Virus record (IMG/VR): IMGVR_UViG_3300045988_082153
Location: 1-64,000 of that record
DNA length: 64,000 nucleotides
From: a virus
Direction: 5' to 3' (one strand)
Each line of letters begins with the position of its first letter. The stretch's first letter is position 1. The position numbers and the translations under genes were made by a program. Shown here one piece after another: positions 41,768 through 55,847 of this stretch. The notes beneath the pieces were generated by a model. It saw nothing but the letters and a program-made list of their open reading frames with translations, was not told the origin of the DNA and ran no database searches.

Positions 41768-42403
41768 ATGGTGTACAAAATCGAAGTCGTGGAGCGTGAC
41801 GTGCGCATTGCCATTGACGAAAACAAGACAAACGATCAGCTCATCAGCGATGAGGACATTGACACCTTATCGTTGAATGACATCATCCGCTCAAAGATAG
41901 TTGAAGCCGTTCGGCGTGTAGAGTCGTCCGCTCCCGTTCACTACTTGGAAGAAGGTCACGTGTTTGGCGATGCCATCTACTGGGAGAACAACGGAAGCGG
42001 TTGGACTCTGCTGCCCGATGATTTCATGCGTCTTGTAGCCTTTCGCATGAGCGACTGGGAACGCACCTGCTATATGGCCATATCAGCAGACGACCCATTG
42101 TATGATTTGCAATCGTCAAGATACAAGGGTATTCGCGGCAATGTCCAAAAGCCGGTGTGTGCCGTAGTGAACCGTGCCGAGGGCAAGGTGTTGGAGTTCT
42201 ACAGTTGCAACAGTGAAGAAGCCTACGTGAAACGTGCCTCATACATTCCTTATCCGAGCATAGACGAGGAGGACGGCATAGACATCAGCGAGCGTTGTTA
42301 CACAGCCGTGGTCTATACTACGGCTGCATTAGTATTAACCGCCTATGGTGCGAGCGAGCAAGCTGCCGCAATGAACACCTTGGCAAAAAGCATTTTTGAA
42401 TAA
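41768..42403 (+). CDS. hypothetical virion protein (head-tail adaptor position)
   Basis: 211-aa ORF. Its stop overlaps the tail-fibre ATG (TAATG). Confidence 0.45.
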   Translation: MVYKIEVVERDVRIAIDENKTNDQLISDEDIDTLSLNDIIRSKIVEAVRRVESSAPVHYLEEGHVFGDAIYWENNGSGWTLLPDDFMRLVAFRMSDWERTCYMAISADDPLYDLQSSRYKGIRGNVQKPVCAVVNRAEGKVLEFYSCNSEEAYVKRASYIPYPSIDEEDGIDISERCYTAVVYTTAALVLTAYGASEQAAAMNTLAKSIFE

Positions 42404-45400
42404 TGAGTTCAATACCAACAAAACAGATAGATGGTGACGTTGCGGTTAGTCGTGACGTTAACATCGGCGGCAAGGCCACCATACGCGGTTCGGCAAAGGT
42501 CGGCCACAATCTGACCGTTGACGGCTGGCTTGAAGCCAAGAACATAAAAGGCCCGAACAAAGGCCTGTTCAAAACGGCGGCACAGCTACGCGAGGCTTAC
42601 CCTAATCCTCATGAAGGATGGTGGGCGTTGGTGACCGTAGAAGGCAGTGCAGCGTCAGATCATCTTGGCCAGCTCTATGTAGCTGACGGTGGTACATGGG
42701 TAGCGCAAGTTGACAGCAACGGTAATCCGCTGCTGAAGGGTAATCCTACGGTTGATAGCACCGAGTACATGGAAGCCGTGGAGGGAATGACAGCCGATCT
42801 CGAAGCCGTGAAGGTGGACGTTAACCAGAACAAGAGCGACATCAGCAGTTTGCGCACCACGCAGACCACGCAGGGTAACAGCATCAACACTCTAAATACC
42901 CAGATGAATACTGCACAGAGCGACATAACAACTCTGAAAAAGACCGTCAGTGACAACAAAACGGAACTTGCCAAGGGTGTGGCGGAAGTGCAGAGTGACC
43001 TCAACACTTTCAAAAAGACCAAAGGAGAGGCAGGAGGACTGGCACCGCTGGACGAGAACGGACAGGTGTCTTCGCAATATCTGCCCAGTTATGTGGACGA
43101 TGCCTTGGAATTTGGCTGCATCGTAAGTGATGTAACAGCGCAGATGTCTTCTGTATCTAAAAAATCAGATGATGAAAACTGCTCGGTTGTTTATAACAAG
43201 ACAACCAACACTTTCTTACTGAAATATTCCAAGCCATCAGAGTCTGAATTTGACTTACGTCCGACTATCACTTACTACAACAATTGGCTCGATGGTGACT
43301 TGTACGGTGAAGCCACCATGAACGGTCGTGTGCCCCACAGCGGCAAGATATTCATGGACGTAAGCACCAACAAGACCTACCGCTGGGCAGGGACAAAACT
43401 TGCCGTAATCGGTTCAGACCTTGCGCTCGGTCATACCAGCGGCACCGCATTTCCTGGTAATGAAGGAGCCGACATTCAGGAACGTATGAACGAGGTGGAG
43501 AGTACAGCTGACATCAACCGTCAACTGATAGAAAATACCTCCACAGAACTACTATGTCGCAACACAATCAATGCTAATAACCTGCTATCGTTGGGCGAAA
43601 GGGAGGTGACACTATCTGTTGTGCTTGAAAAAATCTTCGATTTGGAGAACAGCGTGCGCTATATGAAGCCCGGTATTGTTCTATCATTCCTTTCAGAAAC
43701 AGGCATACAAAACAAGCAGTGGACGAACTACGGCAAGAAAACAGAAACAGATTGGAAAACCGAGGCCAACTGGACAGACTTCGGCTCGAACGGCAGTGCC
43801 ATAGGCAACACGGTGAATGTAAATGACATCTGCGATGATACTGAATACACCCTTTCTACCGCCATAAAAGCCGTGCTCGACAAGGAGAAAGAGAGCGGAC
43901 TGTCGTATATGAAAGCAGGTGTTGTGCTGACCTACAAGACCGCAGACATGACCAGCAACGGCTCGCCCAAATGGGAAGCCTACCAATTCACACGCAACGT
44001 AGAAGACATCAACCCAGCCGACTTGAAGCCGTGGGTGGAGTTTGGCGGAGGCGGCAACAATGCCGTACCCACCTCGGACACCCCAGAGAAAGACGGCAAG
44101 GAAGCCTTCTCGACAGGCGGCGCATACACCAACATACCCAACAACCTGCGCATCGACACCGAAACCCAAGGTGTGGTGAAACTCCAGCTGGAGAACGCCG
44201 AGCATGAAGCCGTGGGCGATGAGGTGCAGTTTGCCGTAGGCGGCGGTGGTGGAGAGAGTACAGGCACCATTGTGAGCATACAGTTTGAGCAAAGTCCGCT
44301 CTATGCCAAGGCAGGAGGCAGCGTGGTGATGAAAGCCGCCGTGCGAAGCATCACCACGCAAGGCAACAACGAGCTGAGCAACATGATAGAAAAGGTGGTT
44401 CTGAAAGACCGCGACACGGGACAGACCTTGGAGACTTTCATGTTCAACCGCGCCTCGTCAGCCAGCGGAGACACCTACGACTTCGAGATGGACGTGAGCA
44501 GCTACTTCGTGACCGCCACAACAAAGAGGTTCCAACTCATAGCCTACGACGATGCAGGAAACACGGGAAGCCGCAACATCAACGTGAGCGGTGTGGACGT
44601 GACCATCAGCAGTGTGCAGACACTGAACTACACCAGCAGCACCTCGCTTGCCGTAGGCGGAGTCGCCAAGAGCATACCGATGTACAAGTTTGCCAACAAC
44701 GCTTCGGACAAGGGCATCAAGGTTATTACCGAGATATACATGAACGGCGAGTGGAAGACCCTCGGCGAGCAGACCATACTTGACACCTACTCGCATAGCA
44801 TCACCGTGGATCCAAAGAGCTGCTTGACTGAAGCACTCACGCACGGAGCCTATCCCCTGCGCATCCATGGCGAAGATGTGGGCAGCGGTGTGAGGGGCAA
44901 CTACCTGCATACCGCCATTATGGTAGTGGAAGCAGGGAACAATACCCCAATCATCGCCATGCGGTGGTACACCGACCAGCTGAAAGGCAAGCGCAAGCTA
45001 TACGAGAACATCGAAATAGACTATGCCGTGTATGTAGGCGACAACGATGAGCCGCAAGCCACCATACTCTATGACGGAGCAAAGGAGACCACCGCCATAG
45101 CCTACCGCCAGCAGACCAACACCTACACCAAGCAAGTGCTTGAGAGCGTGCATGACGGCACGAAGAGCGTGTCGGTGCAAGTGACGTGCGGCGACAGCCA
45201 AGGCGAGACCGCTACATTTGTGGTGGACGGTTCGCTTGTAGACGTGGAAGAAGTGACCACCCTCAGAGAGTTCAACATCACAATGGACTCACGCAGCAAC
45301 GGCGAGACCGACAAGAGCATCAAGGACGGCAGCGTGGAGGTGAACGTGGAGAACTGTAACTGGAGCAGCAACGGCTTTGTAAAGGACACCTACGGCACAC

Positions 45401-48400
45401 CCACCTACGGAACGGAGAACGACAAGGGACGCATGGCACTGCGCATAGCAGAGGACATGAAAGCCCGATGCACCTACAAACCATTCTCCGGCACAAGCAT
45501 CGAGCAGAACGGACTGGCACTGAGTTTCACCATCAAGGTGAAGAACGTGGAAGACCGCACGGCAAGGCTCATAGACTGCCTTGGCGACAACTCGCTCGGC
45601 TTCTATGTGACAGGCGAGAAGCTTGTATTCACCTGCGACGGAGCCACCGCCGCCAACCAAGACGACCTTGGCGCACAGCAGACCGCCGTAGCCCTGTATG
45701 CGACCGACAAGGAGACCCGCTTTGACATCGTGATAGAGCCGACCAGCATTGCCCCCTACTCGGGTATAGGCAGCATCAAGATATATGTGAACGGAGACGA
45801 GGTAGCAGCCACCTACTACAATGCAGGACGCTTCGCGCACAACGACATGACGATGCTCTTTGACGGCACAAAAGCCGACATCTACCTGTACCGCCTCACG
45901 GCATGGGCGACCTACTACAACTACCGCCAAGCGTTCAACAACTACCTCGTAGGACAGAAAGACACCACCGCCATGCTGACCGAATACGAGAAGAACCAAG
46001 TGATGGCATCGCAGACGGCAGAGGGAATAACCAAAGACCGCCCCACACTGCAAGCGTGCATGAACGCAGGACTGTGCTGCGTGACGCTGCTGAAGAACGC
46101 CGACACCCCCGACATAGAGCAGAGCTACCCCGGCTACCTTGACAAGCTGGACGGCGACAAGAAGACCAAAGCCTACTTTGACTGGGTAATCCGTTTTCCC
46201 GACCGCCCATGGCAGGACTGCAAGGTGTACAATGTGCCGACCACCAACCAAGGCACGACCTCATCGCTTCGCCCAATCAAGAACAAGAAAGGCAAGTTCA
46301 AGGGCTGCAAGATTGAGATGCTCCACACCGAGGAGGACTTCAAGGACAACCCGACGGCACTCGCTAAGTTCAAGACGGCACAGAAGATGGCAGCGAAGAG
46401 CCAAATACAGGTGATAGACGGCGGCTTGTGGGTAAAGACCATAACAATCAAGGTGGACTATTCCGACTCGACAGGCGCGAACAACGGAGCCACGATGGAA
46501 CTGTTCAACAAGGTGCAGCGCGCCATGGGAGCCGACTATATGACCCCTGCACAGAACGCCTACAACGGCGAAGGCACGATGAACACCAGCATCGACAGCG
46601 TGACGTGCGCCCTGTTCCGCACCGACCAGCAGAGCGTGGATGCCACCAACGAGACCTACGCCTACTTCCATGCCAAGGCCAACTTCAACGTGGACAAGGG
46701 CAACCCCTCTTTCTTCGGCTTCGAGAAAGTGAGCGGCTACAACGGAGATTGCTTGAACTATGGCGACTTCAAGGAACTCGTGGCAGAGAAAGGCCAAGAC
46801 ATCAACATCTTCAAGGTACAGTCCCTTGCCAAGAGTGACGAACTCATAGCCTCGAACATCTACATGCTCTCGGAGTACTGCGGCGAGAAGCACATCTTCC
46901 TGGAGAATGACGGTACGGGAAAAATGGCAGAGTGTGATGCTACCGCCGACCCGACCGAAGTGGACAAGAGCCTTGCCGAAGTCATTGCCGATGATGTGAA
47001 GAACTATGACTGGGGAACGGTGTACTTGACCAACGACTACAAGTATGTGAAGTACACAGGCGGCAAGTGGAAAGACACCACGGGCAAGATGCAGTATGAC
47101 CAGAGCGTGAAGAAATGGACGGTGACAGGCAGAGTGCTGAACCCTGTGGAGTGCTTCGAGTACTTGAAGTATGACAGTCTGTGCTGGCTGCAAGGCGTGA
47201 ACGGCATCGAAGACATGATGAAGCTCGACCCTGCCACAAGCAAACCCATCTGGCTGAGTTACTACGAAAGCCGATACCCCGATGATGACGACTTGAACGA
47301 CCTGTATGCGCAGGGCAAGAAAGTGCCGTACCGCCTGTACAAGTGGCTGCGGTGGACGCAAGACTGCTCGCAAGACCGCACAGAGGCAGACGGCGACATC
47401 ACCATTCACGGCAAGACCGTGGCAGGAACCAAGGAGAACCGTCTGAAGAAGTTCTGCGAAGAGCTGCACGAATGGGCCAACGTGAAATCCACATTGTCGT
47501 ATGTGGTGGGCAGCGATTATGTATTGGCCGTTGACCAGCGAAGCAAGAACATGATGATAACGTTCTACCTCGACACCAACGGACTGGTACGCGCCTACTT
47601 CAACCACTGGTATGATGGTGACTGCGTGTGGCTCTCGGACAACGACTGCGGTGTGACCATACCTTGGGACTTGGACAGCAAGGTAGACCCCAAGCACTAC
47701 TACCAAGGCTGGAACTCGGTGATGTTCCAGCAAGCGTATGCAGGAGACAAGTTCTGGCTTGACGACAAGGGCAGCACTACCGTAACACTGCATGATGTGG
47801 CGCAGGATATGCGCACGGCAGAGGCAGACGGCATCAAGATATTCTCGGCAGACGGCTGCAAGAAGCTGTGGATAACCGACCGCATAGACAAGTGGGCGAA
47901 GATAACCAGTTCGTTTGACAACGAGCGCAAATACATAGAGAACTCCAAGGCAGGAGCCAACTACTACTATGCCGTACACGGACTGAGGTATGAAGACCTG
48001 CCTGTAACGTTTGAGAAGCGTTTCGCCTATCGTGACGGCTTCTACCAAGTTGGCGAGCTGTACACCAACCCGTTCAAGATGCGTGCCGTGGGTACGGACA
48101 TCAGCATCAAGATAACGGCAGCGCAGGACGCATTCTTCGGACTGGGTGTGGACCGTGCAGACGCTTGTGTGGACAGCTGTTACCTCAAAGCAGGAGAAAG
48201 CTATACGCTGAAGAGCGGCATGACCGCCACAGGCTCGGGAACGATGCTCTATGTGTTTGGTGCGAAATACCTTGCCAGCCTTGACGTGAGCGGCTGCACA
48301 CCAAAGGCAGAGGGCTGGGACATCAGCAACTGCGACCTGCTGCAGGAGATAATCATCGGCGGTGAGGACTACACGCCAGAAGAAGGCAGCGGAGCCATCA

Positions 48401-50625
48401 CCCAACTGAACATGGGCAACAAGAGTTTCTTGAAGCGCATAGACGTGCGGAACACGAAGATAACGAGCATCATAGCCTCGTACTGTCCACGGCTGACCGA
48501 GGTGCTGGCGAGCGGTTCGCAACTTGCGAGCATTGACTTGGCAGAGACCGCCCCGATAGAAACGCTACAGTTGCCCGGTACTATGACCACACTCTACTTC
48601 AAGAACCTGCCACGGCTGACCTATCCCGGCGGACTGACCATTGAGGGCGGCATGAGCAAGGTGACGAAGATGTTCTTGGACGAATGTCCGAAGATAGACA
48701 CCATGACCTTGCTGCGGCAGATAACCACGGCAGGAGCGTTGAAGAGTGTGCGCATACCCGGCATCAATGCCACGGCAAGTGTGGAGATGCTGCGCGCTAT
48801 AAAGAATAGCGGTGCCGTGGGAATAGATGCCAACGGAGCAACCTACGATGAGAGCGGCCAGTGTAGTGGACTGTTGGGACGCTGGATATTGACAGAGTTG
48901 GTGGAAGATGAAGAGGTGGAAGCCCTGCAAACGTACTTCCCCAGACTGACCGTCATCAACTCGCAGTTCTCCATGGTGAAGATAGACGATGTAGTGAGCG
49001 GCGACTTCTGCGAGAAATACAGCAATCCCGAGAACGAGACAGGTGCCGACTACGACAAGACATTCGTGGCAAGCGGACACACACTGAAAATCGTGCAGAA
49101 CACCCATGCCTACAAGTGTACCTACAACAGTAAGTTGAAACAGATGGAAGGCAGACAACTGAGCGACACCGACTTCAACCGCCTCATTAACGGCGAAACC
49201 TTTGATGTGGGCGACAGCGCAGGAGAAGGCTTCGACATCTTCCACCATTTACCCCACTTCTGGTACAAAGGTGTGAACGACTACAAGAACCAAGTAAAGT
49301 ATATCTTCCACTCAATGACCGACAACGAGCCGCTGACCACCGTAGGCAAGAAGAAAGAAGCAATGCTTTCGGAGTTGCTCTATGCCGAGAATACAGGCAT
49401 CTATGCAGACGAGGCGCAGGAGGGCGAGACCATCGGCGACAACATCATCACGACAGCCGCCAACGTGAATGCCTACCGCATGGACGTGGAAGGCATGAAG
49501 CAAGTGAGGTGGCCTGGACTGAACCATGCAAGGCTCGGAGCCGTGTTCACCGATGCGAGCGGAAAGATAGTAGGCAAGTTCATCATGATGGTGAGCCACA
49601 CCTACTTTGACTTCACCATAGGCAAATATGTGTTCTGTGATGTGCCGAACGGTGCCAAGTGGATGTACTTCACATCGTATCGCGACATCGAAGACACCAT
49701 GTGTCTTGCCGTTGACAGCGAGAGTTTGGAAGCCATAGAACCCGAATGGACGGAGCATACCGTGGGCGATGTGGACAGCCTCGTTGGAACGTACCCCATA
49801 ACCATAGACGGACTGAAACGCCCCCGAAGCATATCGGGAGCGGTGCGTTCGAAGAAAGGCGACGGAACATCGCAGACCTCAAACGAATGGGCATACGACA
49901 GCGAGGGCAACCCGACGGAGATGCCTAACGGCACGTTGCACTTCACCGACAAGGACTTCCAGAACTGCTGCCGTATGCGTGGCGAGGGTTATCAGTTGCA
50001 AGACTACGAGATGCACAAGGAGATAAGCAACCTGTGGTGGGCAACGCACGGCACGACCAACGAGCAAGCCGTTGTGGGCAACGGAGCGCATGATGCGATA
50101 CTGAACAGCCGCGACGACATAGGCATGGCCGACACCGCCTATGTGGGCAATGCGATGAACTCAATCATGGGCTTGAAGCACTATGTGGGCTGTGACTCGG
50201 AGTGGATGGACTACATAGCAGGAAACGTGAAGAGCTACACAGAGTTCTACAAGAACAGATGCGTGGAGACAAACGACGACCCTGTGGACTATGTGTTCCA
50301 CATCTACGACCCGATAAAGAAGACAGAGCGCATGGTACAGAGCGTTACCAGTGGCGGCAACTGCGTGGTGAGAGTTGTGCATGGAGCCAAGTGCGACATA
50401 TTGCCCAGCAAGGTGCATCAGACCGACACCAGCAAATACACGACCCACTATGCGGCAGGACTATGGTTCCCCGGCAGCAGAGGCCGCTGTGTTCTGCGGT
50501 CTGGCAACTACTCGTATGCGAACAGCGGTCTCGCTTGTGCGTACGCGAACTACGCTTCTTCGCACTCGTACACGGACTACGGCGGTCGGCTGGCCTTCCG
50601 CGGAAAATTCGTGATTGTTGACTAA
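42403..50625 (+). CDS. giant tail fibre / receptor-binding protein, 2740 aa, DGR target
   Basis: N-terminal fibre-like region with coiled coil and the GGLAPLDENGQVSSQYLPSYVDD motif common in tail fibres. Leucine-rich-repeat segment (~48268-48810). The C-terminus carries the DGR variable region. Confidence 0.85.
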   Translation: MSSIPTKQIDGDVAVSRDVNIGGKATIRGSAKVGHNLTVDGWLEAKNIKGPNKGLFKTAAQLREAYPNPHEGWWALVTVEGSAASDHLGQLYVADGGTWVAQVDSNGNPLLKGNPTVDSTEYMEAVEGMTADLEAVKVDVNQNKSDISSLRTTQTTQGNSINTLNTQMNTAQSDITTLKKTVSDNKTELAKGVAEVQSDLNTFKKTKGEAGGLAPLDENGQVSSQYLPSYVDDALEFGCIVSDVTAQMSSVSKKSDDENCSVVYNKTTNTFLLKYSKPSESEFDLRPTITYYNNWLDGDLYGEATMNGRVPHSGKIFMDVSTNKTYRWAGTKLAVIGSDLALGHTSGTAFPGNEGADIQERMNEVESTADINRQLIENTSTELLCRNTINANNLLSLGEREVTLSVVLEKIFDLENSVRYMKPGIVLSFLSETGIQNKQWTNYGKKTETDWKTEANWTDFGSNGSAIGNTVNVNDICDDTEYTLSTAIKAVLDKEKESGLSYMKAGVVLTYKTADMTSNGSPKWEAYQFTRNVEDINPADLKPWVEFGGGGNNAVPTSDTPEKDGKEAFSTGGAYTNIPNNLRIDTETQGVVKLQLENAEHEAVGDEVQFAVGGGGGESTGTIVSIQFEQSPLYAKAGGSVVMKAAVRSITTQGNNELSNMIEKVVLKDRDTGQTLETFMFNRASSASGDTYDFEMDVSSYFVTATTKRFQLIAYDDAGNTGSRNINVSGVDVTISSVQTLNYTSSTSLAVGGVAKSIPMYKFANNASDKGIKVITEIYMNGEWKTLGEQTILDTYSHSITVDPKSCLTEALTHGAYPLRIHGEDVGSGVRGNYLHTAIMVVEAGNNTPIIAMRWYTDQLKGKRKLYENIEIDYAVYVGDNDEPQATILYDGAKETTAIAYRQQTNTYTKQVLESVHDGTKSVSVQVTCGDSQGETATFVVDGSLVDVEEVTTLREFNITMDSRSNGETDKSIKDGSVEVNVENCNWSSNGFVKDTYGTPTYGTENDKGRMALRIAEDMKARCTYKPFSGTSIEQNGLALSFTIKVKNVEDRTARLIDCLGDNSLGFYVTGEKLVFTCDGATAANQDDLGAQQTAVALYATDKETRFDIVIEPTSIAPYSGIGSIKIYVNGDEVAATYYNAGRFAHNDMTMLFDGTKADIYLYRLTAWATYYNYRQAFNNYLVGQKDTTAMLTEYEKNQVMASQTAEGITKDRPTLQACMNAGLCCVTLLKNADTPDIEQSYPGYLDKLDGDKKTKAYFDWVIRFPDRPWQDCKVYNVPTTNQGTTSSLRPIKNKKGKFKGCKIEMLHTEEDFKDNPTALAKFKTAQKMAAKSQIQVIDGGLWVKTITIKVDYSDSTGANNGATMELFNKVQRAMGADYMTPAQNAYNGEGTMNTSIDSVTCALFRTDQQSVDATNETYAYFHAKANFNVDKGNPSFFGFEKVSGYNGDCLNYGDFKELVAEKGQDINIFKVQSLAKSDELIASNIYMLSEYCGEKHIFLENDGTGKMAECDATADPTEVDKSLAEVIADDVKNYDWGTVYLTNDYKYVKYTGGKWKDTTGKMQYDQSVKKWTVTGRVLNPVECFEYLKYDSLCWLQGVNGIEDMMKLDPATSKPIWLSYYESRYPDDDDLNDLYAQGKKVPYRLYKWLRWTQDCSQDRTEADGDITIHGKTVAGTKENRLKKFCEELHEWANVKSTLSYVVGSDYVLAVDQRSKNMMITFYLDTNGLVRAYFNHWYDGDCVWLSDNDCGVTIPWDLDSKVDPKHYYQGWNSVMFQQAYAGDKFWLDDKGSTTVTLHDVAQDMRTAEADGIKIFSADGCKKLWITDRIDKWAKITSSFDNERKYIENSKAGANYYYAVHGLRYEDLPVTFEKRFAYRDGFYQVGELYTNPFKMRAVGTDISIKITAAQDAFFGLGVDRADACVDSCYLKAGESYTLKSGMTATGSGTMLYVFGAKYLASLDVSGCTPKAEGWDISNCDLLQEIIIGGEDYTPEEGSGAITQLNMGNKSFLKRIDVRNTKITSIIASYCPRLTEVLASGSQLASIDLAETAPIETLQLPGTMTTLYFKNLPRLTYPGGLTIEGGMSKVTKMFLDECPKIDTMTLLRQITTAGALKSVRIPGINATASVEMLRAIKNSGAVGIDANGATYDESGQCSGLLGRWILTELVEDEEVEALQTYFPRLTVINSQFSMVKIDDVVSGDFCEKYSNPENETGADYDKTFVASGHTLKIVQNTHAYKCTYNSKLKQMEGRQLSDTDFNRLINGETFDVGDSAGEGFDIFHHLPHFWYKGVNDYKNQVKYIFHSMTDNEPLTTVGKKKEAMLSELLYAENTGIYADEAQEGETIGDNIITTAANVNAYRMDVEGMKQVRWPGLNHARLGAVFTDASGKIVGKFIMMVSHTYFDFTIGKYVFCDVPNGAKWMYFTSYRDIEDTMCLAVDSESLEAIEPEWTEHTVGDVDSLVGTYPITIDGLKRPRSISGAVRSKKGDGTSQTSNEWAYDSEGNPTEMPNGTLHFTDKDFQNCCRMRGEGYQLQDYEMHKEISNLWWATHGTTNEQAVVGNGAHDAILNSRDDIGMADTAYVGNAMNSIMGLKHYVGCDSEWMDYIAGNVKSYTEFYKNRCVETNDDPVDYVFHIYDPIKKTERMVQSVTSGGNCVVRVVHGAKCDILPSKVHQTDTSKYTTHYAAGLWFPGSRGRCVLRSGNYSYANSGLACAYANYASSHSYTDYGGRLAFRGKFVIVD
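50483..50598 (+). repeat. DGR variable region (VR)
   Basis: 116 nt, gapless match to TR 51437-51552. 105/116 positions identical, and all 11 mismatches lie at TR adenines. Confidence 0.92.
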
Positions 50626-50654
50626 GCGGAAAGCGAAAGCTCGAAAAAAGCGTC

Positions 50655-50721
50655 AGAGGGAGAGCCGACGAAAGGAGGCTGCTCCCTCTCCCTTTTTATC
50701 TCGCGTCAGCGAGATTTTTTA
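50655..50721 (+). terminator. tandem Rho-independent terminators after the tail-fibre gene
   Basis: AGAGGGAG/CTCCCTCT stem (50655-50690) then CCCTTTTT. ATCTCGC-GTCA-GCGAGAT (50698-50715) then TTTTTT. Confidence 0.6.
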
Positions 50722-50773
50722 TAGGCTCTGCAAAATAAAAGTAAAAGTTGTATGATATATCAACTTTTTGTAT

Positions 50774-50781
50774 TACCTTTG
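50774..50781 (+). promoter_or_regulatory. TAnnTTTG promoter element of the TA-TR-RT unit
   Basis: TACCTTTG ends 4 nt before ATG 50786, implying a leaderless or near-leaderless transcript. Confidence 0.35.
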
Positions 50782-50785
50782 CACC

Positions 50786-51121
50786 ATGAACTCAGAACGG
50801 AGAATACTGGTTTACAAAGATTATTTCCTCACGTTCTACCGCGCCTTGGAAGCAGGAGCGCAGAAGAAGATAGACTATGTGCTTGATGTGCTGAAGATGC
50901 AGGACAGAGTGAGCGAAAAATTTGTAAAGTACATAAAGGATGGTCTCTATGAAATAAGAGCCTCCTACAATGGTAATATATATCGAGCGTTCTTCATTTT
51001 CGACGAGGGCAACATCGTGATGCTCTTCAACGGCTTTCAGAAGAAAACCCAGAAGACACCCTCCAAAGAGATAGACAGAGCACTTGAACTTAAAAAGGAA
51101 TATTATGCAGGAAAGAAATGA
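50786..51121 (+). CDS. higB: RelE/ParE-superfamily toxin, Gp49/HigB-like
   Basis: ILVYKDYFLTFYRALEAGAQKKIDYVLDVL...GLYEIRASYNGNIYRAFFIFDEGNIVMLFNGFQKKTQKTPSKEIDRALELKKEY matches the phage Gp49-like toxin pattern. Confidence 0.85.
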   Translation: MNSERRILVYKDYFLTFYRALEAGAQKKIDYVLDVLKMQDRVSEKFVKYIKDGLYEIRASYNGNIYRAFFIFDEGNIVMLFNGFQKKTQKTPSKEIDRALELKKEYYAGKK

Positions 51122-51407
51122 CATTAGCAGTTTTGATGCCATTCTTGACGCCAAGTATGGAGCAGTAGGAACTGCGGAAAGAGAGGCTTTCAGAAAAGAA
51201 GCCACCAACTATTGCGTGGGACAGATTATCTATGATGCCCGTAAGCAGGAGCACATGACCCAATCTGACCTCGCAAAGAAAGTCGGTACGGACAAGACCT
51301 ACATATCACGCATAGAGAAAGGTGTGATAGAGCCTGGTGTGGGAATGTTTTTCCGCATCATTGACGCTTTGGGACTAAAAGTGGACATTGTGCGTCCGAT
51401 AGTATAA
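51105..51407 (+). CDS. higA: XRE-family HTH antitoxin, HigA-like
   Basis: The ATG overlaps the toxin 3' end by 17 nt. HMTQSDLAKKVGTDKTYISRIEKGVIEPGVGMFFRIIDALGLKVDI is an HTH_3 motif. Confidence 0.85.
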   Translation: MQERNDISSFDAILDAKYGAVGTAEREAFRKEATNYCVGQIIYDARKQEHMTQSDLAKKVGTDKTYISRIEKGVIEPGVGMFFRIIDALGLKVDIVRPIV

Positions 51408-51436
51408 CAAGAAACAAAAGGCAGAAAATCCCACGC

Positions 51437-51552
51437 GCCGCTGTGTTCTGCGGTCTGGCAACAACTCGAATGCGAACAGCGGTCTCGCTTATGCGAACGC
51501 GAACAACGCTTCTTCGAACTCGAACACGAACTACGGCGGTCGGCTGAAATTC
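51437..51552 (+). repeat. DGR template repeat (TR)
   Basis: Read in the VR frame it gives RCVLRSGNNSNANSGLAYANANNASSNSNTNYGGRLKF, rich in AAC/AAT codons. Begins 29 nt after the higA stop and ends 98 nt before the RT ATG. Confidence 0.92.
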
Positions 51553-51650
51553 TAAGTGGTACTTAATCGGGGGACTCTGACGTGGCACGAGGATTGCCGC
51601 AAACAAACTCCGAGGGATTAGAGCCTCGGCAACAGCATGATAAACGAATT

Positions 51651-53138
51651 ATGGAAAGCCGGAACACGACATTAACCACATGTGGGGAGTGCGCAAGTAT
51701 CTCCCCACAGGACAGGAAGGCTGTCAACACATTGGAAGACTTGTTAGGACAGGTAGAAGCACCGACTTCTATCTGTTTTCCTTTATATAACCTCATCCCA
51801 GAAATTATTTCGGACGAAAACATGGAACGCTCGTTCAAGCGTGTCATGTCGAACCTTCATAACGCAGACACGCGAAGCGGAATAAAATGGAGGGAGACGG
51901 TTGTTATAGATGGTGTGGAATGTACTCCACGCATGGTGCGCTATATGAGACGCAAGAAAGAAATTATTGCCGAGTTGAAAGAACAAATAGGTAATGGAAC
52001 TTTCCGCGTTGTTCGTTTATCCTCGTTTGAAGTGGACGATGGTCCGAAGAAAAGAATGGTTCAAGCACCTCCTGTTGTGAAACGTATAGGCTGCAATGCC
52101 ATCATGGAGATTGTGGAAAAACACCTTTCGCCATTGCTAATTGAAAACACGGCAGCTTCGATAGAAGGACGCGGCCCACACGGACTATTCCACAAGATGC
52201 AGGAAGTGAGAGCCGAGAACCCCGACCTTATATATTATTATCAAAGCGACTATAAAGGTTATTATGACCACATATTGCACGACAAGATGATTGACATCAT
52301 CAAGCAGTATATAGCCGACCCGATATTACTCCCCATACTAATAGACTTCGTTAAAGTATTGCACCCGGATGGCAACGTAGGCATCAGCAAGGGACTACGC
52401 TCCTCGCAGTTCTTCGGCAACCTGTACCACAATGACATTGACCATGCCATGATAGAGGAGTGTGGAAAGGATAACTACAACCGCTTTTGTGACGACATAT
52501 ACATATATGGAGACAACAAAAAAGAGTTGTGGAAACACAGGGACACACTGCATAGGCTAAGTAAACCCTACAATCTGATAATCAAGCCGAGCGAGAAGGT
52601 TGCTCCAGTGAGTGCAGGAATGGATGCACTGGGTTATATTGATTATGGTGACCACTCACGAATACGCAAGCGCACAAAGGTGAACGCTGCGAGGAAACTC
52701 GCCAAGATAAAGTCGAGAAAGCGAAGGCAACAAATTATAGGCTCGTTCAAAGGAATGGCATGTCATGCGGACTGCCAGCATTTATATTATATATTAACAG
52801 GTAAAAACATGAAGAAATTTTCAGAAATGGGCGTGACCTATAAGCCAGCAGACGGAAAGAAACGTTTTCCCGGTAAGGTGACACGCTTGGGTGACATCGT
52901 GAAAATCCCGGTAGAAATTCACGACTACGAGACACTGGACACGAAGTTTGGCGAAGACCGCTACTTAGTGTCGTTCAAGAACCCTGCGACACAGGAATGG
53001 GGCAAGTTCTTCACCGCTTCGGACGAGATGAAAGGCATCCTTGACCAGATAAGCGACATCGAGGATGGCTTTCCGTTTGAGACCGTCATCAAGTGCGAAC
53101 AGTTTGACGGCAGCAAGCGAAAGTATAACTTCACCTAA
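51651..53138 (+). CDS. DGR-type reverse transcriptase with C-terminal extension
   Basis: LYNLIPEIISDENMERSFKRV N-terminal motif. AASIEGRGPHG. SDYKGYYDHILHDKM. DGR hallmark GLRSSQFFGNLY (SQ motif). Catalytic FCDDIYIYG (YxDD-type). LGYIDY thumb. About 109 extra C-terminal residues. Confidence 0.9.
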   Translation: MESRNTTLTTCGECASISPQDRKAVNTLEDLLGQVEAPTSICFPLYNLIPEIISDENMERSFKRVMSNLHNADTRSGIKWRETVVIDGVECTPRMVRYMRRKKEIIAELKEQIGNGTFRVVRLSSFEVDDGPKKRMVQAPPVVKRIGCNAIMEIVEKHLSPLLIENTAASIEGRGPHGLFHKMQEVRAENPDLIYYYQSDYKGYYDHILHDKMIDIIKQYIADPILLPILIDFVKVLHPDGNVGISKGLRSSQFFGNLYHNDIDHAMIEECGKDNYNRFCDDIYIYGDNKKELWKHRDTLHRLSKPYNLIIKPSEKVAPVSAGMDALGYIDYGDHSRIRKRTKVNAARKLAKIKSRKRRQQIIGSFKGMACHADCQHLYYILTGKNMKKFSEMGVTYKPADGKKRFPGKVTRLGDIVKIPVEIHDYETLDTKFGEDRYLVSFKNPATQEWGKFFTASDEMKGILDQISDIEDGFPFETVIKCEQFDGSKRKYNFT

Positions 53139-53181
53139 AGCGACTCACTAAAGATAAAAGCGTGAATTGGGCTGCATACTA

Positions 53182-53189
53182 TATCTTTG
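53182..53189 (+). promoter_or_regulatory. TAnnTTTG promoter element
   Basis: TATCTTTG lies 22 nt upstream of ATG 53212. Confidence 0.35.
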
Positions 53190-53211
53190 CCTCAACAAAA
53201 TCATAGCGACA

Positions 53212-53682
53212 ATGGAAAAGATATACGGCACAACCAAACGTCAGGACGGACTGCAACGAGTAGGCAAGAATAAATGGCTGCTCTATTTCGGTCTGTATGA
53301 AACAGAGAGCGGTACATACGAATACCGCCATACGTTCACGCACAAGCCCACGCTTGACGAGATAAAGAAACTTGTTTGGGCTACGATAGACGCAGAGACC
53401 AAAGACAAGATTGTTAATCAGTTTGAGTATGAGGGCATCAAGGTTTGGCTCACAGACGAGAAGCAGCGTAACTTTGCCTCTATTGAGAACAACGAAAGTG
53501 TTACATTCCCACTTACGTTGAAGCTCAACGAGAAAGCCGACGCTACACCAATCTATCATACCTTCCAGACGCGAGACGAGTTCAAGAAGTTCAGCGAGGC
53601 CGCTGCATGTTTCATTCTTGAAACCATCAGGAACGGATGGAAGGAGAAGGACAATGTAGATTGGGACGTGTTTGACATGTAA
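53212..53682 (+). CDS. hypothetical protein (possibly DUF4376-like)
   Basis: 156 aa. KIVNQFEYEGIKVWLTDEKQRNFASIEN is loosely reminiscent of DUF4376 tail-fibre-associated domains. Has its own promoter and terminator. Confidence 0.4.
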   Translation: MEKIYGTTKRQDGLQRVGKNKWLLYFGLYETESGTYEYRHTFTHKPTLDEIKKLVWATIDAETKDKIVNQFEYEGIKVWLTDEKQRNFASIENNESVTFPLTLKLNEKADATPIYHTFQTRDEFKKFSEAAACFILETIRNGWKEKDNVDWDVFDM

Positions 53683-53707
53683 TCACAACATTATCAATAA
53701 GAGGAAC

Positions 53708-53800: not shown

Positions 53801-54049
53801 ATGGCAATGAAAAAGATTATTACATGGTTAAAATCCAGCAACCGCGGCAGACATATCGTAGGCGGCGTTCTCATCGGCTTGGGAGCTGATGATACCTACT
53901 GTGCGCTGTATGCCGGAGCTGGTGTAGCTGGAGCCTTGGAACTTAAAGACAAGTTGTATGGCGGCAAATGGGATTGGGTTGACTTCGGTTGTACGATGGC
54001 CGGAGTAGTTGTAGGACGCTTGATAAGAGTAACACTGACAGGGAAATGA
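53801..54049 (+). CDS. small membrane protein, holin candidate
   Basis: 82 aa with two or three hydrophobic segments (HIVGGVLIGLGA; ALYAGAGVAGAL; CTMAGVVVG). First gene of the lysis cassette. Confidence 0.45.
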   Translation: MAMKKIITWLKSSNRGRHIVGGVLIGLGADDTYCALYAGAGVAGALELKDKLYGGKWDWVDFGCTMAGVVVGRLIRVTLTGK

Positions 54050-54712: not shown

Positions 54713-55309
54713 ATGATTAAAATTCTAATCGACAATGGGCATGGAGTGAACACTAAAGGCAAGCAATCGCCTGATGGTCGTTTGCGTGAATATGCCTATG
54801 CAAGAGAGATTGCAACCCGAGTTATGACCGAGCTTCGCGGCATGGGCTACAATGCAGAGCGTGTTGTGGAAGAGGAGCAGGACGTTGCACTGTCTGTACG
54901 CTGCAAGCGTGTGAACGACATCTGCAAGAAAGTAGGCACCAAGAACGTACTGCTTGTCTCGATCCACAACAATGCAGCAGGAGGCGACGGCAAATGGCAT
55001 GAGGCGCGAGGCTTTTCTGCCCATGTAGGCATGAACGCATCCGCAAAGAGCAAGGCTTTGGCGCAGTATCTTTGGAACGAAGCAATACTTCAAGGACTGA
55101 AAGGCAACCGTTGTGTGCCCTATGCCAAGTACATCGCCCAGAACCTTGCTATCTGTAGAGACACGAACTGCCCTGCAGTGTTGACGGAGAACCTTTTCCA
55201 AGACAACAAAGAAGACGTTGACCTGCTGTTGAGTGAGGAAGGCAAGGAGAAGGTGACAGCCGTGCATGTGAACGCTATTGTTGAATTTATCAAAGACTAT
55301 TATGGATAA
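54713..55309 (+). CDS. N-acetylmuramoyl-L-alanine amidase (Amidase_3) endolysin
   Basis: ILIDNGHGVNTKGKQSP...E...REIA...L...GYNAERV...R...VLLVSIHNNAAGG...G matches the MurNAc-LAA pattern. Confidence 0.85.
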   Translation: MIKILIDNGHGVNTKGKQSPDGRLREYAYAREIATRVMTELRGMGYNAERVVEEEQDVALSVRCKRVNDICKKVGTKNVLLVSIHNNAAGGDGKWHEARGFSAHVGMNASAKSKALAQYLWNEAILQGLKGNRCVPYAKYIAQNLAICRDTNCPAVLTENLFQDNKEDVDLLLSEEGKEKVTAVHVNAIVEFIKDYYG

Positions 55310-55847
55310 GAAGATTTTAGGCTTTTTGTGGGCAATGTTAGGTGTGGTTGTTGGCATCGTCTGTCTGGTTGGCATCGTGCATTGCGGAGGCTACGGCAAA
55401 GATCATGAACCTGCAGAAGTGGTGCGTGACACTGTGATTGACACCATACCTTACTATAAGCCAGTACCCAAGGACAGTTTGGTGTTGACGTACAAGACCG
55501 TGACCCTTCCCAAGAGTGACAAGGCGCAGCCATCTATCCGTGCGGACACACAACCGGCAGAAAGCTGTACACAAAACGATGCGGCAGATGTGCGTGACAG
55601 TGCGGAGGTTACTATCCCCATCATCCAAAAGATGTATAAAAGCAGTGACTATACGGCATGGGTGAGCGGATATGACGTGCAGCTTGACAGCATCTATGTA
55701 TATCCCAAGCATGAGTATGTAACGCGCAAGATTAAGCAGCCTCCTAAGAAATGGCATATCGGTGTGACGGCAGGTTACGGCTTCGGCAAACAAGGTATGC
55801 AGCCATATATAGGCATCGGACTAACGTATTCACTAATCTCATTCTGA
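55302..55847 (+). CDS. membrane-anchored protein (spanin-like position)
   Basis: The ATG overlaps the amidase stop (ATGGATAA). N-terminal TM ILGFLWAMLGVVVGIVCLVGIV. C-terminal GVTAGYGFGKQGMQPYIGIGLTYSL. Confidence 0.45.
   Translation: MDKKILGFLWAMLGVVVGIVCLVGIVHCGGYGKDHEPAEVVRDTVIDTIPYYKPVPKDSLVLTYKTVTLPKSDKAQPSIRADTQPAESCTQNDAADVRDSAEVTIPIIQKMYKSSDYTAWVSGYDVQLDSIYVYPKHEYVTRKIKQPPKKWHIGVTAGYGFGKQGMQPYIGIGLTYSLISF

What the first reader, a model, noticed from the sequence alone, without database searches (positions are those of the whole stretch)
50483..53138. Complete DGR: 116-bp TR/VR pair differing only at template adenines, targeting the tail-fibre tip
VR (50483-50598) ends 8 codons before the stop of the 2740-aa ORF. 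It aligns without gaps to TR (51437-51552). By hand alignment 105/116 positions are identical. All 11 differences lie at TR adenines: 27 A in TR, of which 11 changed (5 to T, 3 to G, 3 to C). All 89 non-A positions are identical. In the VR frame the TR adenines fall in AAC/AAT/AAA codons. Nine codons differ and all changes are nonsynonymous: N->Y x5, Y->C, N->H, N->D, K->A. The ORF 98 nt downstream of TR has the DGR-RT hallmarks (GLRSSQFFGNLY SQ motif, FCDD catalytic box). This is the signature of adenine-specific mutagenic retrohoming known from Bordetella phage BPP-1 (mtd/avd/TR/brt). Here it acts on the receptor-binding end of a giant fibre.
Basis: partly seen in the sequence, partly recalled or inferred. 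Interest (0 to 1): 0.85.

Follow-up and report, generated by a model that had tools for sequence, protein, structure and literature searches.

The report
Diversity-generating retroelement in a Bacteroidales phage
This is a genuine diversity-generating retroelement, a reverse-transcriptase system that rewrites only the adenine-templated positions at the tip of one giant phage protein; it is a clean example of a known kind, and a close cultured relative has already been published.

Summary
VR 50483-50598 and TR 51437-51552 align without gaps, and all 11 differences lie at TR adenines. The last three (TR AAA vs VR GCC) are a fixed boundary difference rather than mutagenesis. The working repeat is therefore 110 nt, with 8 of 8 changes at A (P=1.8e-6).

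In 57 distinct TR/VR pairs from related loci, 616 of 638 mismatches lie at TR adenines. Near-identical genomes differ almost only in the VR.

The RT's best sequence and fold match is the Bordetella phage BPP-1 DGR RT (8ub7). The TR-RT spacer is the Rfam RT-3 RNA, in the position where BPP-1 has Phage_DGR RNA.

Differences from BPP-1:
- No avd anywhere in the window.
- A RelE/Gp49-HTH toxin-antitoxin pair is inserted between VR and TR.
- The RT carries a strongly conserved 110-aa C-terminal domain.

"Tail fibre" and "C-type lectin" remain unproven.

A DGR in the cultured relative BS-TP4 was published in 2025, so this is a new member of a known kind.

Side finding: a widespread sister lineage has lost the polymerase core, yet its VRs still vary in the adenine-specific way.

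The parts
42403..50625 (+). Target gene: 2740-aa ORF whose last ~40 codons hold the VR. Full-length member of PHROG 14959 (function unknown).
   Evidence: No Pfam or PDB sequence hit. aa ~110-370 are 27-32% identical to proteins annotated as tail fibre in crAss-like phages; aa 839-1198 resemble a hankyphage protein. It follows the portal, putative capsid gene (assigned by synteny with BS-TP4) and two small genes in the structural module.
50483..50592 (+). Variable repeat (VR), 110-nt working core.
   Evidence: 8 mismatches to the TR, all at TR adenines. Relatives with an identical TR all carry different VRs.
50593..50603 (+). VR-specific GC-rich 3' flank GCCTTCCGCGG. Candidate IMH-like homing determinant. 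The TR has AAATTCTAAGT here.
   Evidence: Conserved after the VR in all lineages, while TR copies always have the A/T-rich version. Its function is inferred by analogy to BPP-1 IMH/IMH*.
50655..50689 (+). Conserved GC-rich hairpin (AGAGGGAGAGCCG ... GGCTGCTCCCTCT) followed by a T run. Terminator of the target gene and/or the DNA hairpin that DGR targets carry downstream of the VR.
   Evidence: The stem is kept in all lineages with variable loops, and the paired arms differ together between lineages (GAGCCG/GGCTGCTC vs GAGTCG/GACTGCTC).
50698..50715 (+). Second terminator-like hairpin (ATCTCGC GTCA GCGAGAT) plus T run.
50774..50781 (+). TACCTTTG, matching the Bacteroides -7 promoter consensus TAnnTTTG (consensus recalled from memory). 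Candidate promoter of the TA-TR-RT transcript.
   Evidence: One of only two matches in 50401-53200. The position is conserved in TA-less relatives and in BS-TP4. Its function is inferred.
50786..51121 (+). Gp49/RelE-ParE-family toxin gene (111 aa), part of an inserted TA cassette.
   Evidence: PF05973 at 1.2e-22; TIGR02683 and phrog_3445 'toxin'. Absent from 11 relatives with 346-347-nt VR-TR spacing.
51105..51407 (+). HTH_3/XRE-family antitoxin-like gene (100 aa). Overlaps the toxin gene by 17 nt.
   Evidence: PF01381 at 3e-14; antitoxin-type NCBIfam hits below cut-off.
51437..51546 (+). Template repeat (TR), non-coding, with 24 adenines: 10 AAY codons plus 4 single-A codons when read in the VR frame.
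   Evidence: Identical in 10 loci (window plus 9 relatives) whose VRs all differ. No mutagenesis outcome yields a stop. About 1.5e14 possible peptides.
51565..51716 (+). [quoted passage not shown] It overlaps the RT start codon and first 22 codons.
   Evidence: 56.4 bits against a gathering score of 40.5. Same position in four relatives, while BPP-1 has Phage_DGR RF03022 there. 36 predicted pairs, 3 with compensatory changes.
51651..53138 (+). DGR reverse transcriptase, 495 aa: N-terminal extension, RT core (aa ~126-384, with SQ motif and FCDD box) and a conserved C-terminal domain.
52803..53135 (+). RT C-terminal domain (aa 385-495; phrog_19665). Predicted b1-b2-b3-a-b4-b5, an OB-like order of elements. 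Function unknown.
   Evidence: It is a separate gene next to the RT in L088, and it survives alone in RT-core-deleted relatives. No Pfam match.

Best explanation
This is a functional, or very recently functional, diversity-generating retroelement of a temperate Bacteroidales phage.

Inferred cycle, by analogy to BPP-1:
1. A transcript starting near the conserved TAnnTTTG element (50774) runs through the toxin-antitoxin genes, the TR, the RT-3 spacer RNA and the RT gene.
2. The RT, held on the structured spacer RNA, copies the TR into cDNA. It copies C, G and T faithfully and inserts any base opposite adenine.
3. The cDNA replaces the VR at the 3' end of the 2740-aa gene. Direction is set by the VR-specific GC-rich flank GCCTTCCGCGG and the hairpin downstream of it.

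The result randomises 14 codons (10 AAY and 4 single-A), about 1e14 peptides and never a stop, in a C-terminal binding module of a large virion-module protein. That protein is most probably a host-recognition fibre.

What is shown: the parts, the RT's clade, the adenine-only spectrum, and population-level VR hypervariability beside invariant TRs.
What is inferred: transcript structure, priming on the spacer RNA, the homing determinants, and the receptor-binding role.

The element belongs to an avd-less Bacteroidales clade whose RT carries a conserved 110-aa C-terminal domain. The toxin-antitoxin pair is a cargo insertion and not a DGR component.
For: - Exact A-only TR/VR pair (P=1.8e-6 for the 110-nt core).
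- 57 distinct TR/VR pairs from 80 IMG/VR loci and BS-TP4: 616/638 mismatches at TR-A. Per-site rates are A 45%, C 0.5%, G 0.6%, T 0.2%. 10 distinct TRs against 57 distinct VRs.
- Near-identical genomes: L003 has 1/1000 mismatches upstream vs 10/110 in the VR, L004 0/1000 vs 15/110, L005 1/1000 vs 9/110, all with an identical TR.
- The protein alignment shows a fixed scaffold with hypervariable positions at the AAY codons.
- RT: best PDB sequence hit is BPP-1 bRT 8ub7 at 4.8e-18, against 8.6e-5 for group II and 8.6e-4 for a chain deposited as 'retron-type' RT. tblastn with Brt gives 5e-22. Top Foldseek hits are 8ub7/8ubd, TM 0.73-0.76. S252, Q253, D281 and D282 are invariant in 39 homologues.
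- Spacer RNA: RT-3 here, where BPP-1 has Phage_DGR.
- The VR-specific flank and hairpin are conserved.
- No stop is reachable by mutagenesis.
- myDGR independently called a DGR in the relative BS-TP4, with gp14 as target (PMC12694917).
- TA as insertion: 11 loci with 346-347-nt spacing keep both flanks without the TA genes.
Against: - No experiment or read-level data from the source sample. Activity of this particular copy is inferred from relatives.
- No avd homologue, so the BPP-1 mechanism cannot be transferred step by step.
- The fold of the variable domain is unknown: AlphaFold pLDDT 37, and no Pfam or PDB profile link.
- The tail-fibre role is weakly supported.
- By structure alone, group II intron RTs score nearly as well as bRT.
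- 22 of 638 mismatches are at non-A positions. Ordinary mutation or TR drift would account for them.
Confidence: 0.9

Rival explanations
1. A DGR relic. The parts are all present but this copy no longer homes, and the VR differences are inherited from an active ancestor.
For: Decay does occur in this family. BKO1-TP3 and L076 have a single TR-type copy fused to the target ORF. Some TRs have lost adenines: L037 has 10, L055 17, L033 18. A sister lineage has lost the RT core. Nothing in the window alone proves current activity.
Against: The RT ORF is intact, with the catalytic box and all invariant residues. The TR keeps its full set of 24 adenines. Loci with the same TR and RTs 98-99% identical by tblastn all have different VRs, and those with near-identical flanks differ almost only there, so homing is recent in this very lineage.
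Confidence: 0.07
2. An ordinary duplicated segment. The two copies diverged by normal mutation and selection on the coding copy, and the RT is an unrelated retroelement (group II intron or retron).
For: The Pfam RVT_1 hit is weak (1.2e-9). The best NCBIfam hit is a group II intron model, far below its cut-off.
Against: An A-only spectrum at 8/8 here and 616/638 in relatives cannot come from ordinary mutation. There is no intron RNA on both sides, no maturase or endonuclease domain, and no retron msr/msd hit. By sequence the RT is 13 orders of magnitude closer to bRT than to group II RTs.
Confidence: 0.01
3. The DGR is real, but the target is not a receptor-binding tail fibre. It could be another large virion or ejected protein whose diversified tip binds something other than the host receptor, such as mucus glycans or a defence factor.
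For: The target is a PHROG of unknown function. Its N-terminal region weakly matches 'minor head protein' and 'peptidase' PHROGs. There is no Pfam or PDB sequence hit. The C-terminal module occurs in about 1000 representative proteins of many sizes, some with 2-5 copies. Bacteroides DGR targets over 2000 aa are described as multi-domain proteins of uncertain role (bioRxiv 2024.11.15.621889). Phage DGR targets outside structural genes are known (PMC8008677).
Against: The gene follows the portal, capsid and two small genes, where tail genes are expected, and no other tail-fibre candidate was recognised. aa ~110-370 resemble proteins annotated as crAss-like tail fibres. The next gene after the RT is DUF4376-like, with a weak tail-fibre PHROG hit.
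Confidence: 0.25

Closest known systems
Bordetella phage BPP-1 DGR (mtd-avd-TR-brt)
   Same: The order target-VR ... TR-spacer RNA-RT. The A-only mismatch spectrum. AAY-codon design. VR at the extreme C-terminus. An RT of the same clade (29% identity over 255 aa, SQ motif). A structured RNA between TR and RT. A VR-specific 3' flank and a downstream hairpin.
   Different: No avd. The spacer RNA is Rfam RT-3, not Phage_DGR. The RT is 495 aa against 328 aa, with N- and C-terminal additions. The target is 2740 aa against 381 aa, with no detectable similarity to Mtd. A toxin-antitoxin pair occupies the avd position.
DGR of Bacteroides phage BS-TP4 (PQ571277; Gut Microbes 2025, PMC12694917)
   Same: Same family and layout: giant target (gp14, 2645 aa), RelE-like toxin, HTH, TR, RT-3 RNA, 496-aa RT and a DUF4376 gene. 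The RT is 73% identical and the TR differs at 8 non-A positions. It was published as a DGR with a 'potential tail-related' target.
   Different: A different lineage: 71.5% nucleotide identity over 69% of the 49000-53700 query. A divergent TA allele at the same site. VR-TR spacing of 1012 against 954 nt. The first 25 kb of the window, which includes the start of the 6640-aa ORF, has no megablast match in the phage collection.
avd-less DGRs and RTs with C-terminal extensions (Wu et al. 2018, PMC5758913)
   Same: 26% of curated DGRs lack avd, and 'Lineage 3' lacks it entirely. [quoted passage not shown] This element has both traits.
   Different: I could not place this RT in their tree, so membership of Lineage 3 is untested. 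Here the extension is shown to be a separable, highly conserved module.
Large (>2000 aa) multi-domain Bacteroides DGR variable proteins, 'domain group 3' (Macadangdang et al., bioRxiv 2024.11.15.621889)
   Same: Size class, host clade and a diversified C-terminus.
   Different: That group is defined by CotH-kinase-like motifs. No CotH or any other Pfam domain was detected here at E<=1e-3, so membership is not shown.

Membership tests
Diversity-generating retroelement (DGR) | Reverse transcriptase of the DGR clade, with the (I/L)GxxxSQ signature in place of the QG of other RTs and a YxDD-type catalytic box. | tested here: met
   GLRSSQFFGNLY aligns with bRT GSLTSQLFANVY, and FCDD with YMDD. 8ub7 (bRT) scores E=4.8e-18 against 8.6e-5 for group II RT. 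Brt tblastn gives 5e-22. Top Foldseek hits are 8ub7/8ubd. S252, Q253, D281 and D282 are invariant.
Diversity-generating retroelement (DGR) | A TR/VR pair whose differences fall at TR adenines only. | tested here: met
   8/8 in the 110-nt core, or 11/11 over 116 nt. 616/638 across 57 distinct pairs in relatives.
Diversity-generating retroelement (DGR) | VR inside the 3' end of a protein-coding target; TR non-coding and next to the RT; TR conserved while VR varies. | tested here: met
   The VR ends 8 codons before the stop, and the TR lies 98 nt upstream of the RT. 10 distinct TRs against 57 distinct VRs. Flanks are near-identical where VRs differ.
Diversity-generating retroelement (DGR) | Template adenines placed in AAY-type codons, so that mutagenesis gives many amino acids and no stops. 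| tested here: met
   10 AAY codons plus AGC, TAT, ACG and TAC. 0 stop outcomes among all substitutions. About 1.5e14 peptides.
Diversity-generating retroelement (DGR) | Directional homing signals: IMH at the VR 3' end differing from IMH* at the TR, and a DNA hairpin downstream of the VR. | tested here: inconclusive
   The sequence features are present and conserved: GCCTTCCGCGG against AAATTCT, and the hairpin at 50655-50689. Their function cannot be tested here, and the hairpin also looks like a terminator.
Diversity-generating retroelement (DGR) | Structured spacer RNA between TR and RT that the RT uses. | tested here: met
   Rfam RT-3 at 51565-51716 (56 bits). Same site in 4 relatives, and BPP-1 has Phage_DGR at the same site. 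There is some covariation. Its use by the RT is inferred.
Diversity-generating retroelement (DGR) | Accessory variability determinant (avd). Typical of 74% of DGRs but not universal. | tested here: not met
   None of the ORFs I scanned within ~5 kb of the cassette gave an Avd-type Pfam or NCBIfam hit; short ORFs such as 53801-54049 (82 aa) were not scanned. BPP-1 Avd finds nothing in six frames of the window (E>1). Relatives with 347-nt VR-TR spacing have no room for an ORF there.
Diversity-generating retroelement (DGR) | Variable domain with a C-type-lectin (or Ig-like) fold. | tested here: inconclusive
   The AlphaFold model has pLDDT 36.8. There are no Pfam hits in 23 homologues or 10 distant carriers. 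Profile searches against PDB give nothing significant. hhalign against Mtd gives probability <1%. The motifs WGNKYEWxD ... RVVxRS ... GSRLAFRG resemble FGE-type CLec signatures, but only from memory.
Diversity-generating retroelement (DGR) | Demonstrated mutagenic retrohoming: RT-dependent VR change. | not testable with these tools
   Only population proxies are available.
Phage tail fibre / receptor-binding protein | Homology to characterised fibres, or structural placement at the tail tip. | tested here: inconclusive
   PHROG 14959 has unknown function. There are 27-32% matches over ~150-240 aa to proteins annotated as crAss-like tail fibres. The gene sits in the structural module. No PDB hit.
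Type II toxin-antitoxin (RelE/ParE-Gp49 toxin with HTH-XRE antitoxin) | A small toxin of the Gp49/RelE family followed by an overlapping HTH antitoxin gene. | tested here: met
   PF05973 at 1.2e-22 and PF01381 at 3e-14, with a 17-nt overlap. Toxicity and neutralisation were not tested.

The most novel reading that the evidence does not exclude
This could be a Bacteroidales DGR clade in which Avd is replaced. The cis-acting unit would be the TR, the RT-3 spacer RNA and the conserved ~110-aa C-terminal module (phrog_19665), and the polymerase core could be supplied in trans. This reading rests on a widespread sister lineage (the 124-aa protein P0377, indexed in 415 blocks of the collection). That lineage has deleted the whole RT core in frame but keeps the VR, TA pair, TR, spacer RNA and C-terminal module. 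Its VRs are all different and differ from its own TR at adenines in 100 of 105 mismatches, in genomes that are otherwise 99.7-100% identical. In addition, the TA insertion between the promoter-like element and the TR would put DGR transcription under antitoxin autoregulation.
Probability: 0.25. Interest if true: 0.65.

Novelty: new member of a known kind. Interest (0 to 1): 0.32.

Why it matters
As a DGR it is textbook, and its family is already in the literature. It adds one more abundant gut-phage lineage to the catalogue.

Value beyond that:
1. It ties the orphan Rfam motif RT-3 to the TR-RT spacer of a large Bacteroidales DGR clade. Weinberg et al. 2017 only speculated that such links exist.
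2. It gives a well-populated natural series of one cassette in several states: intact, with or without the TA insertion, VR/TR collapsed, TR adenines eroded, and RT core deleted. That series could be used to study how DGRs decay.
3. It raises the question of whether an avd-less DGR can use a polymerase supplied in trans. If it can, that would change how "orphan" TR/VR pairs are read in metagenomes.

Tried and rejected
- AlphaFold2 of the last 341 aa with a 23-sequence alignment gave pLDDT 36.8, which is unusable, so I ran no fold search on it.
- Routes to the C-type-lectin fold that gave nothing significant: Pfam scans of the C-terminus, of 23 homologues and of 10 distant carriers; profile searches against PDB sequences with two alignments; hhalign against Mtd. 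The fold remains open.
- Megablast of window 1-25000 against phage records found nothing.
- My first fuzzy search, using the window's TR as a mask, missed VRs in about 10 loci and made them look single-copy. Repeating it with each locus's own TR corrected this.
- Ungapped flank comparisons are meaningless where loci have indels or are more diverged (the large counts, and L086). I used only the near-identical pairs.
- A literature search for 'RT-3' together with DGR returned nothing.
- Benler et al. 2021 ('Quimbyviridae') concerns a different phage group.
- The genome-contig scan did not return the Muribaculaceae isolate that carries the RT-deleted prophage, so the trans-RT question stays open.
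- I considered the RT C-terminal domain as an Avd analogue. It is not basic (pI 6.8, against the average of ~9.5 that Wu et al. 2018 report for Avd proteins) and has no sequence match, so this remains only a hypothesis.
- Group II intron and retron readings were rejected.

Full report
**1. The observation**

At a constant offset of 954 nt, 50483-50598 and 51437-51552 align without gaps at 105/116 identity. All 11 mismatches are at TR adenines (5 A>T, 3 A>G, 3 A>C). The TR has 27 A, and the other 89 positions are identical. The nine codon changes, the distance of 8 codons to the stop and the 98-nt gap to the RT start codon are all correct. An adenine-masked TR pattern finds only these two copies in the window, on either strand. 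The probability that 11 random mismatches all fall on adenines is 1.7e-8.

One correction is needed. The last three mismatches (TR AAA, VR GCC) lie where the homology stops. Every relative has GCC after the VR and AAA or AAC after the TR, and the encoded Ala of ...RLAFRG is nearly invariant across protein homologues, present in at least 90% of sequences. This is a fixed boundary difference and not a product of mutagenesis. The working repeat is 110 nt (50483-50592 / 51437-51546) with 8 of 8 changes at A among 24 TR adenines (P=1.8e-6).

**2. Genomic context**

The window is a tailed-phage genome. It encodes:
- a P22-like portal (33983-35941) and a large terminase (35950-38079, minus strand);
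- an integrase-like protein, RecT and an SNF2 helicase;
- an amidase endolysin.

The target ORF (42403-50625, 2740 aa) follows the putative capsid gene (assigned by synteny with BS-TP4) and two small genes. Its nearest cultured relatives are the temperate Bacteroides phages BS-TP4 and BKO1-TP3. Gut Microbes 2025 (PMC12694917) reports a myDGR-predicted DGR in BS-TP4, with gp14 as target and the targets described as "potential phage tail-related proteins". The family is therefore already recognised as DGR-bearing.

**3. The reverse transcriptase**

Pfam sees only a weak RVT_1 match, and NCBIfam's best hit is a group II intron model far below its cut-off. Direct comparison settles the clade:
- The best PDB sequence hit is 8ub7 at E=4.8e-18. 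Group II RT scores 8.6e-5, and a chain deposited as "retron-type" RT scores 8.6e-4.
- 8ub7 is BPP-1 bRT. The Brt translation from AY029185 reproduces the residues shown in the 8ub7 alignment, and Brt hits the window at 5e-22 with 29% identity over 255 aa.
- GLRSSQFFGNLY aligns with bRT GSLTSQLFANVY, and FCDD aligns with YMDD.
- An AlphaFold model built on 39 homologues (pLDDT 76) has the DGR RNP entries 8ub7/8ubd as its top Foldseek hits, with TM 0.73-0.76. Group II RTs come next.

The RT is 495 aa against 328 aa for bRT, with an N-terminal addition and a C-terminal domain (aa 385-495). That domain forms its own PHROG (19665, function unknown). It holds more invariant residues than the core. 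It is predicted as b1-b2-b3-a-b4-b5, which I read as the order of elements in an OB fold. It has no Pfam match.

**4. Population test**

As a substitute I fetched 80 IMG/VR loci through the RT and paired each locus's own TR with its VR.
- Across 57 distinct TR/VR pairs there are 10 distinct TRs but 57 distinct VRs.
- 616 of 638 mismatches lie at TR adenines.
- Per-site mismatch rates are A 45%, C 0.5%, G 0.6% and T 0.2%.
- The 45% density at adenines agrees with the ~50% that Macadangdang et al. report for Bacteroides and Bordetella DGRs.
- Among loci with the window's exact TR and near-identical flanks, the VR carries 9-15 differences per 110 nt against 0-1 per 1000 nt upstream (L003, L004, L005).
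- All 24 adenines vary somewhere in the set, and first-codon-position adenines vary most.

**5. Other cassette features**

[quoted passage not shown] The same hit occurs at the same place in four diverged relatives. BPP-1's TR-brt spacer hits Phage_DGR (RF03022) at the equivalent place. RNAalifold predicts 36 pairs, 3 of them with compensatory changes. Weinberg et al. 2017 tied only RT-10 to a DGR and speculated that other RT motifs might also belong to DGRs.

*Homing signals.* The VR is followed by a conserved GC-rich GCCTTCCGCGG, where the TR has AAATTCT. About 62 nt further on there is a conserved GC hairpin (50655-50689) with a T run. By analogy to BPP-1's IMH and hairpin these would give homing its direction. 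That is an inference.

*No avd.* There is no Avd-type Pfam or NCBIfam hit in any of the ORFs I scanned within ~5 kb. BPP-1 Avd finds nothing in six frames of the whole window. Wu et al. 2018 found that 26% of DGRs lack avd, including all of their Lineage 3, and that about 20% of DGR RTs have C-terminal extensions of unknown function. These traits are therefore known variants.

**6. The two ORFs between VR and TR**

They are a Gp49/RelE-family toxin (PF05973, 1.2e-22) and an overlapping HTH-XRE antitoxin-like gene. They are an insertion:
- 11 relatives have only 346-347 nt between VR and TR.
- Those relatives keep the first ~205 nt (flank, hairpin, and a TAnnTTTG element at 50774 that matches the Bacteroides -7 promoter consensus as I remember it) and the last 17 nt before the TR.
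- The TA genes lie exactly between those two segments.
- BS-TP4 carries a divergent TA allele at the same site.

So the TA pair is cargo and not a DGR component. Because it sits between the promoter-like element and the TR, DGR transcription may read through it. That is an inference.

**7. The target protein**

It is a full-length member of PHROG 14959 (function unknown) with no Pfam or PDB sequence hit. aa ~110-370 are 27-32% identical to proteins annotated as tail fibre in crAss-like phages, including LMMB. A middle segment resembles a hankyphage protein. Position in the structural module and precedent from other DGRs favour a receptor-binding fibre, but this is not shown.

The C-terminal ~230-aa module occurs in about 1000 representative proteins of 100-2955 aa. 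Its fold could not be established. AlphaFold gave pLDDT 37, and Pfam scans, PDB profile searches and hhalign against Mtd were all non-significant. The motifs WGNKYEWxD, RVVxRS and GSRLAFRG resemble FGE-type C-type-lectin signatures, but that is a recollection and not a test.

**8. Decay states in relatives**

- BKO1-TP3 and L076 have a single TR-type copy fused in frame to the target ORF. This is as expected from VR x TR recombination deleting the interval between them.
- Some TRs have lost adenines: L037 has 10, L055 17, L033 18 and L048 22. L067 has a VR identical to its TR.
- The most striking case is a lineage marked by the 124-aa protein P0377, which is indexed in 415 blocks of the collection. 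It has an in-frame deletion of the whole polymerase core, which joins the first ~25 RT residues to the C-terminal domain. It keeps the VR, TA pair, TR and RT-3-like spacer. No RT gene lies within 10 kb either side.
- In that lineage 9 loci have 9 distinct VRs against 2 distinct TRs, and 100 of 105 mismatches lie at the adenines of the lineage's own TR. Pairs with identical flanks (L092 and L094: 0/1500 upstream, 0/2000 downstream) differ at 12 of 110 VR positions.
- The simplest reading is a reverse transcriptase supplied in trans. Several Bacteroidales genomes carry two RTs of this clade. I could not inspect whole genomes of the deleted lineage, so this remains open.
- In L088 the C-terminal domain is a separate gene next to a 324-aa RT. 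The domain is thus separable, and it is retained even where the polymerase is lost. That fits an accessory role but does not prove one.

**9. Verdict**

It is a new member of a known kind: an avd-less Bacteroidales phage clade whose cultured relative was published in 2025.

The corrections are the 110-nt repeat with 8 mutagenic differences, the absence of avd, the toxin-antitoxin insertion, and the unproven tail-fibre and lectin labels. Interest in the finding itself is modest. The RT-deleted but still diversifying sister lineage and the RT-3 assignment are the parts that deserve follow-up.

Noticed in passing
window 14002-33924 (+): A single 6640-aa ORF immediately upstream of the P22-like portal gene. 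It has InPase (aa 2020-2158, 2.5e-52), ddrB-ParB, SNF2/Helicase_C and MuF_C domains. This is the make-up of the giant 'polyvalent proteins' of phages and conjugative elements (class recalled from memory). The first 25 kb of the window has no megablast match in the phage collection.
   Followed up: partly
L084-L087 and L090-L099 (relatives; equivalent to window ~51730-52830): A widespread sister lineage has an in-frame deletion of the whole RT core. It leaves a 124-aa ORF (P0377, indexed in 415 blocks of the collection) made of the first ~25 RT residues plus the C-terminal domain. The VR, TA pair, TR and RT-3-like spacer are intact, and there is no RT within 10 kb either side. Yet 9 loci have 9 distinct VRs, 100 of 105 mismatches lie at the adenines of the lineage's own TR, and the flanks are 99.7-100% identical. 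This implies an RT acting in trans. L096 is a prophage in a sequenced Muribaculaceae isolate (GCA_003762685.1).
   Followed up: partly
window 50786-51407; L013 9553-9789; L001 13387-14288: The RelE/Gp49-HTH toxin-antitoxin pair is a presence/absence polymorphism. It is inserted between a conserved TAnnTTTG promoter-like element and the TR. 11 relatives lack it (VR-TR spacing 346-347 nt), and BS-TP4 has a divergent allele at the same site.
   Followed up: yes
L002 12001-12110 (Bacteroides phage BKO1-TP3) and L076 6639-6748: Collapsed DGR. A single TR-type copy, with all AAC codons intact and the TR-type 3' flank, is fused in frame to the end of the giant ORF and followed directly by the spacer and RT. 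This looks like VR x TR recombination deleting the interval between them.
   Followed up: partly
L037, L033, L055, L048, L067 (TR copies about 100 nt upstream of the RT): TR erosion and reset. The L037 TR has only 10 adenines, L055 has 17, L033 has 18 and L048 has 22, against 24-25 normally. Their VRs still differ from these TRs mostly at the remaining adenines (only at adenines in L037 and L033). In L067 the VR is identical to the TR.
   Followed up: partly
window 51565-51716; L001 14418-14581; L002 12130-12298; L013 9919-10071; L047 9911-10074: The Rfam motif RT-3 (RF03068), which has no assigned function, is the TR-RT spacer of this DGR clade. It occupies the place that Phage_DGR (RF03022) occupies in BPP-1. 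The RT start codon and first ~22 codons lie inside the structure.
   Followed up: yes
window 52803-53135; L088 1274-1606; L100-L179: The RT C-terminal domain (phrog_19665; its motif DGKKRFPG was one of the two stretches the locus finder picked as most conserved in the RT alignment) is fused to the RT in most Bacteroidales relatives, down to 38% identity. In L088 it is a separate gene. Several genomes carry two RTs of this clade.
   Followed up: partly
L084 7441-7686 and the equivalent gene in L085, L087, L090 and other relatives: Relatives carry an 81-166-aa gene with an Acb2_Tad1_hairpin domain (PF24729) between the amidase and DUF6808 genes. From memory this is an anti-CBASS/anti-Thoeris sponge family. 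In the window the amidase (54713-55309) and DUF6808 (55278-55847) ORFs overlap, so it appears to be absent there.
   Followed up: no
window 49600-50622 and proteins P0162-P0309: The last ~230 aa of the target form a portable module. It is found in about 1000 representative proteins (E<=1e-3) of 100-2955 aa, sometimes in 2-5 copies per protein. Pfam recognised nothing in the 10 distant carriers or the 23 close homologues I scanned.
   Followed up: partly
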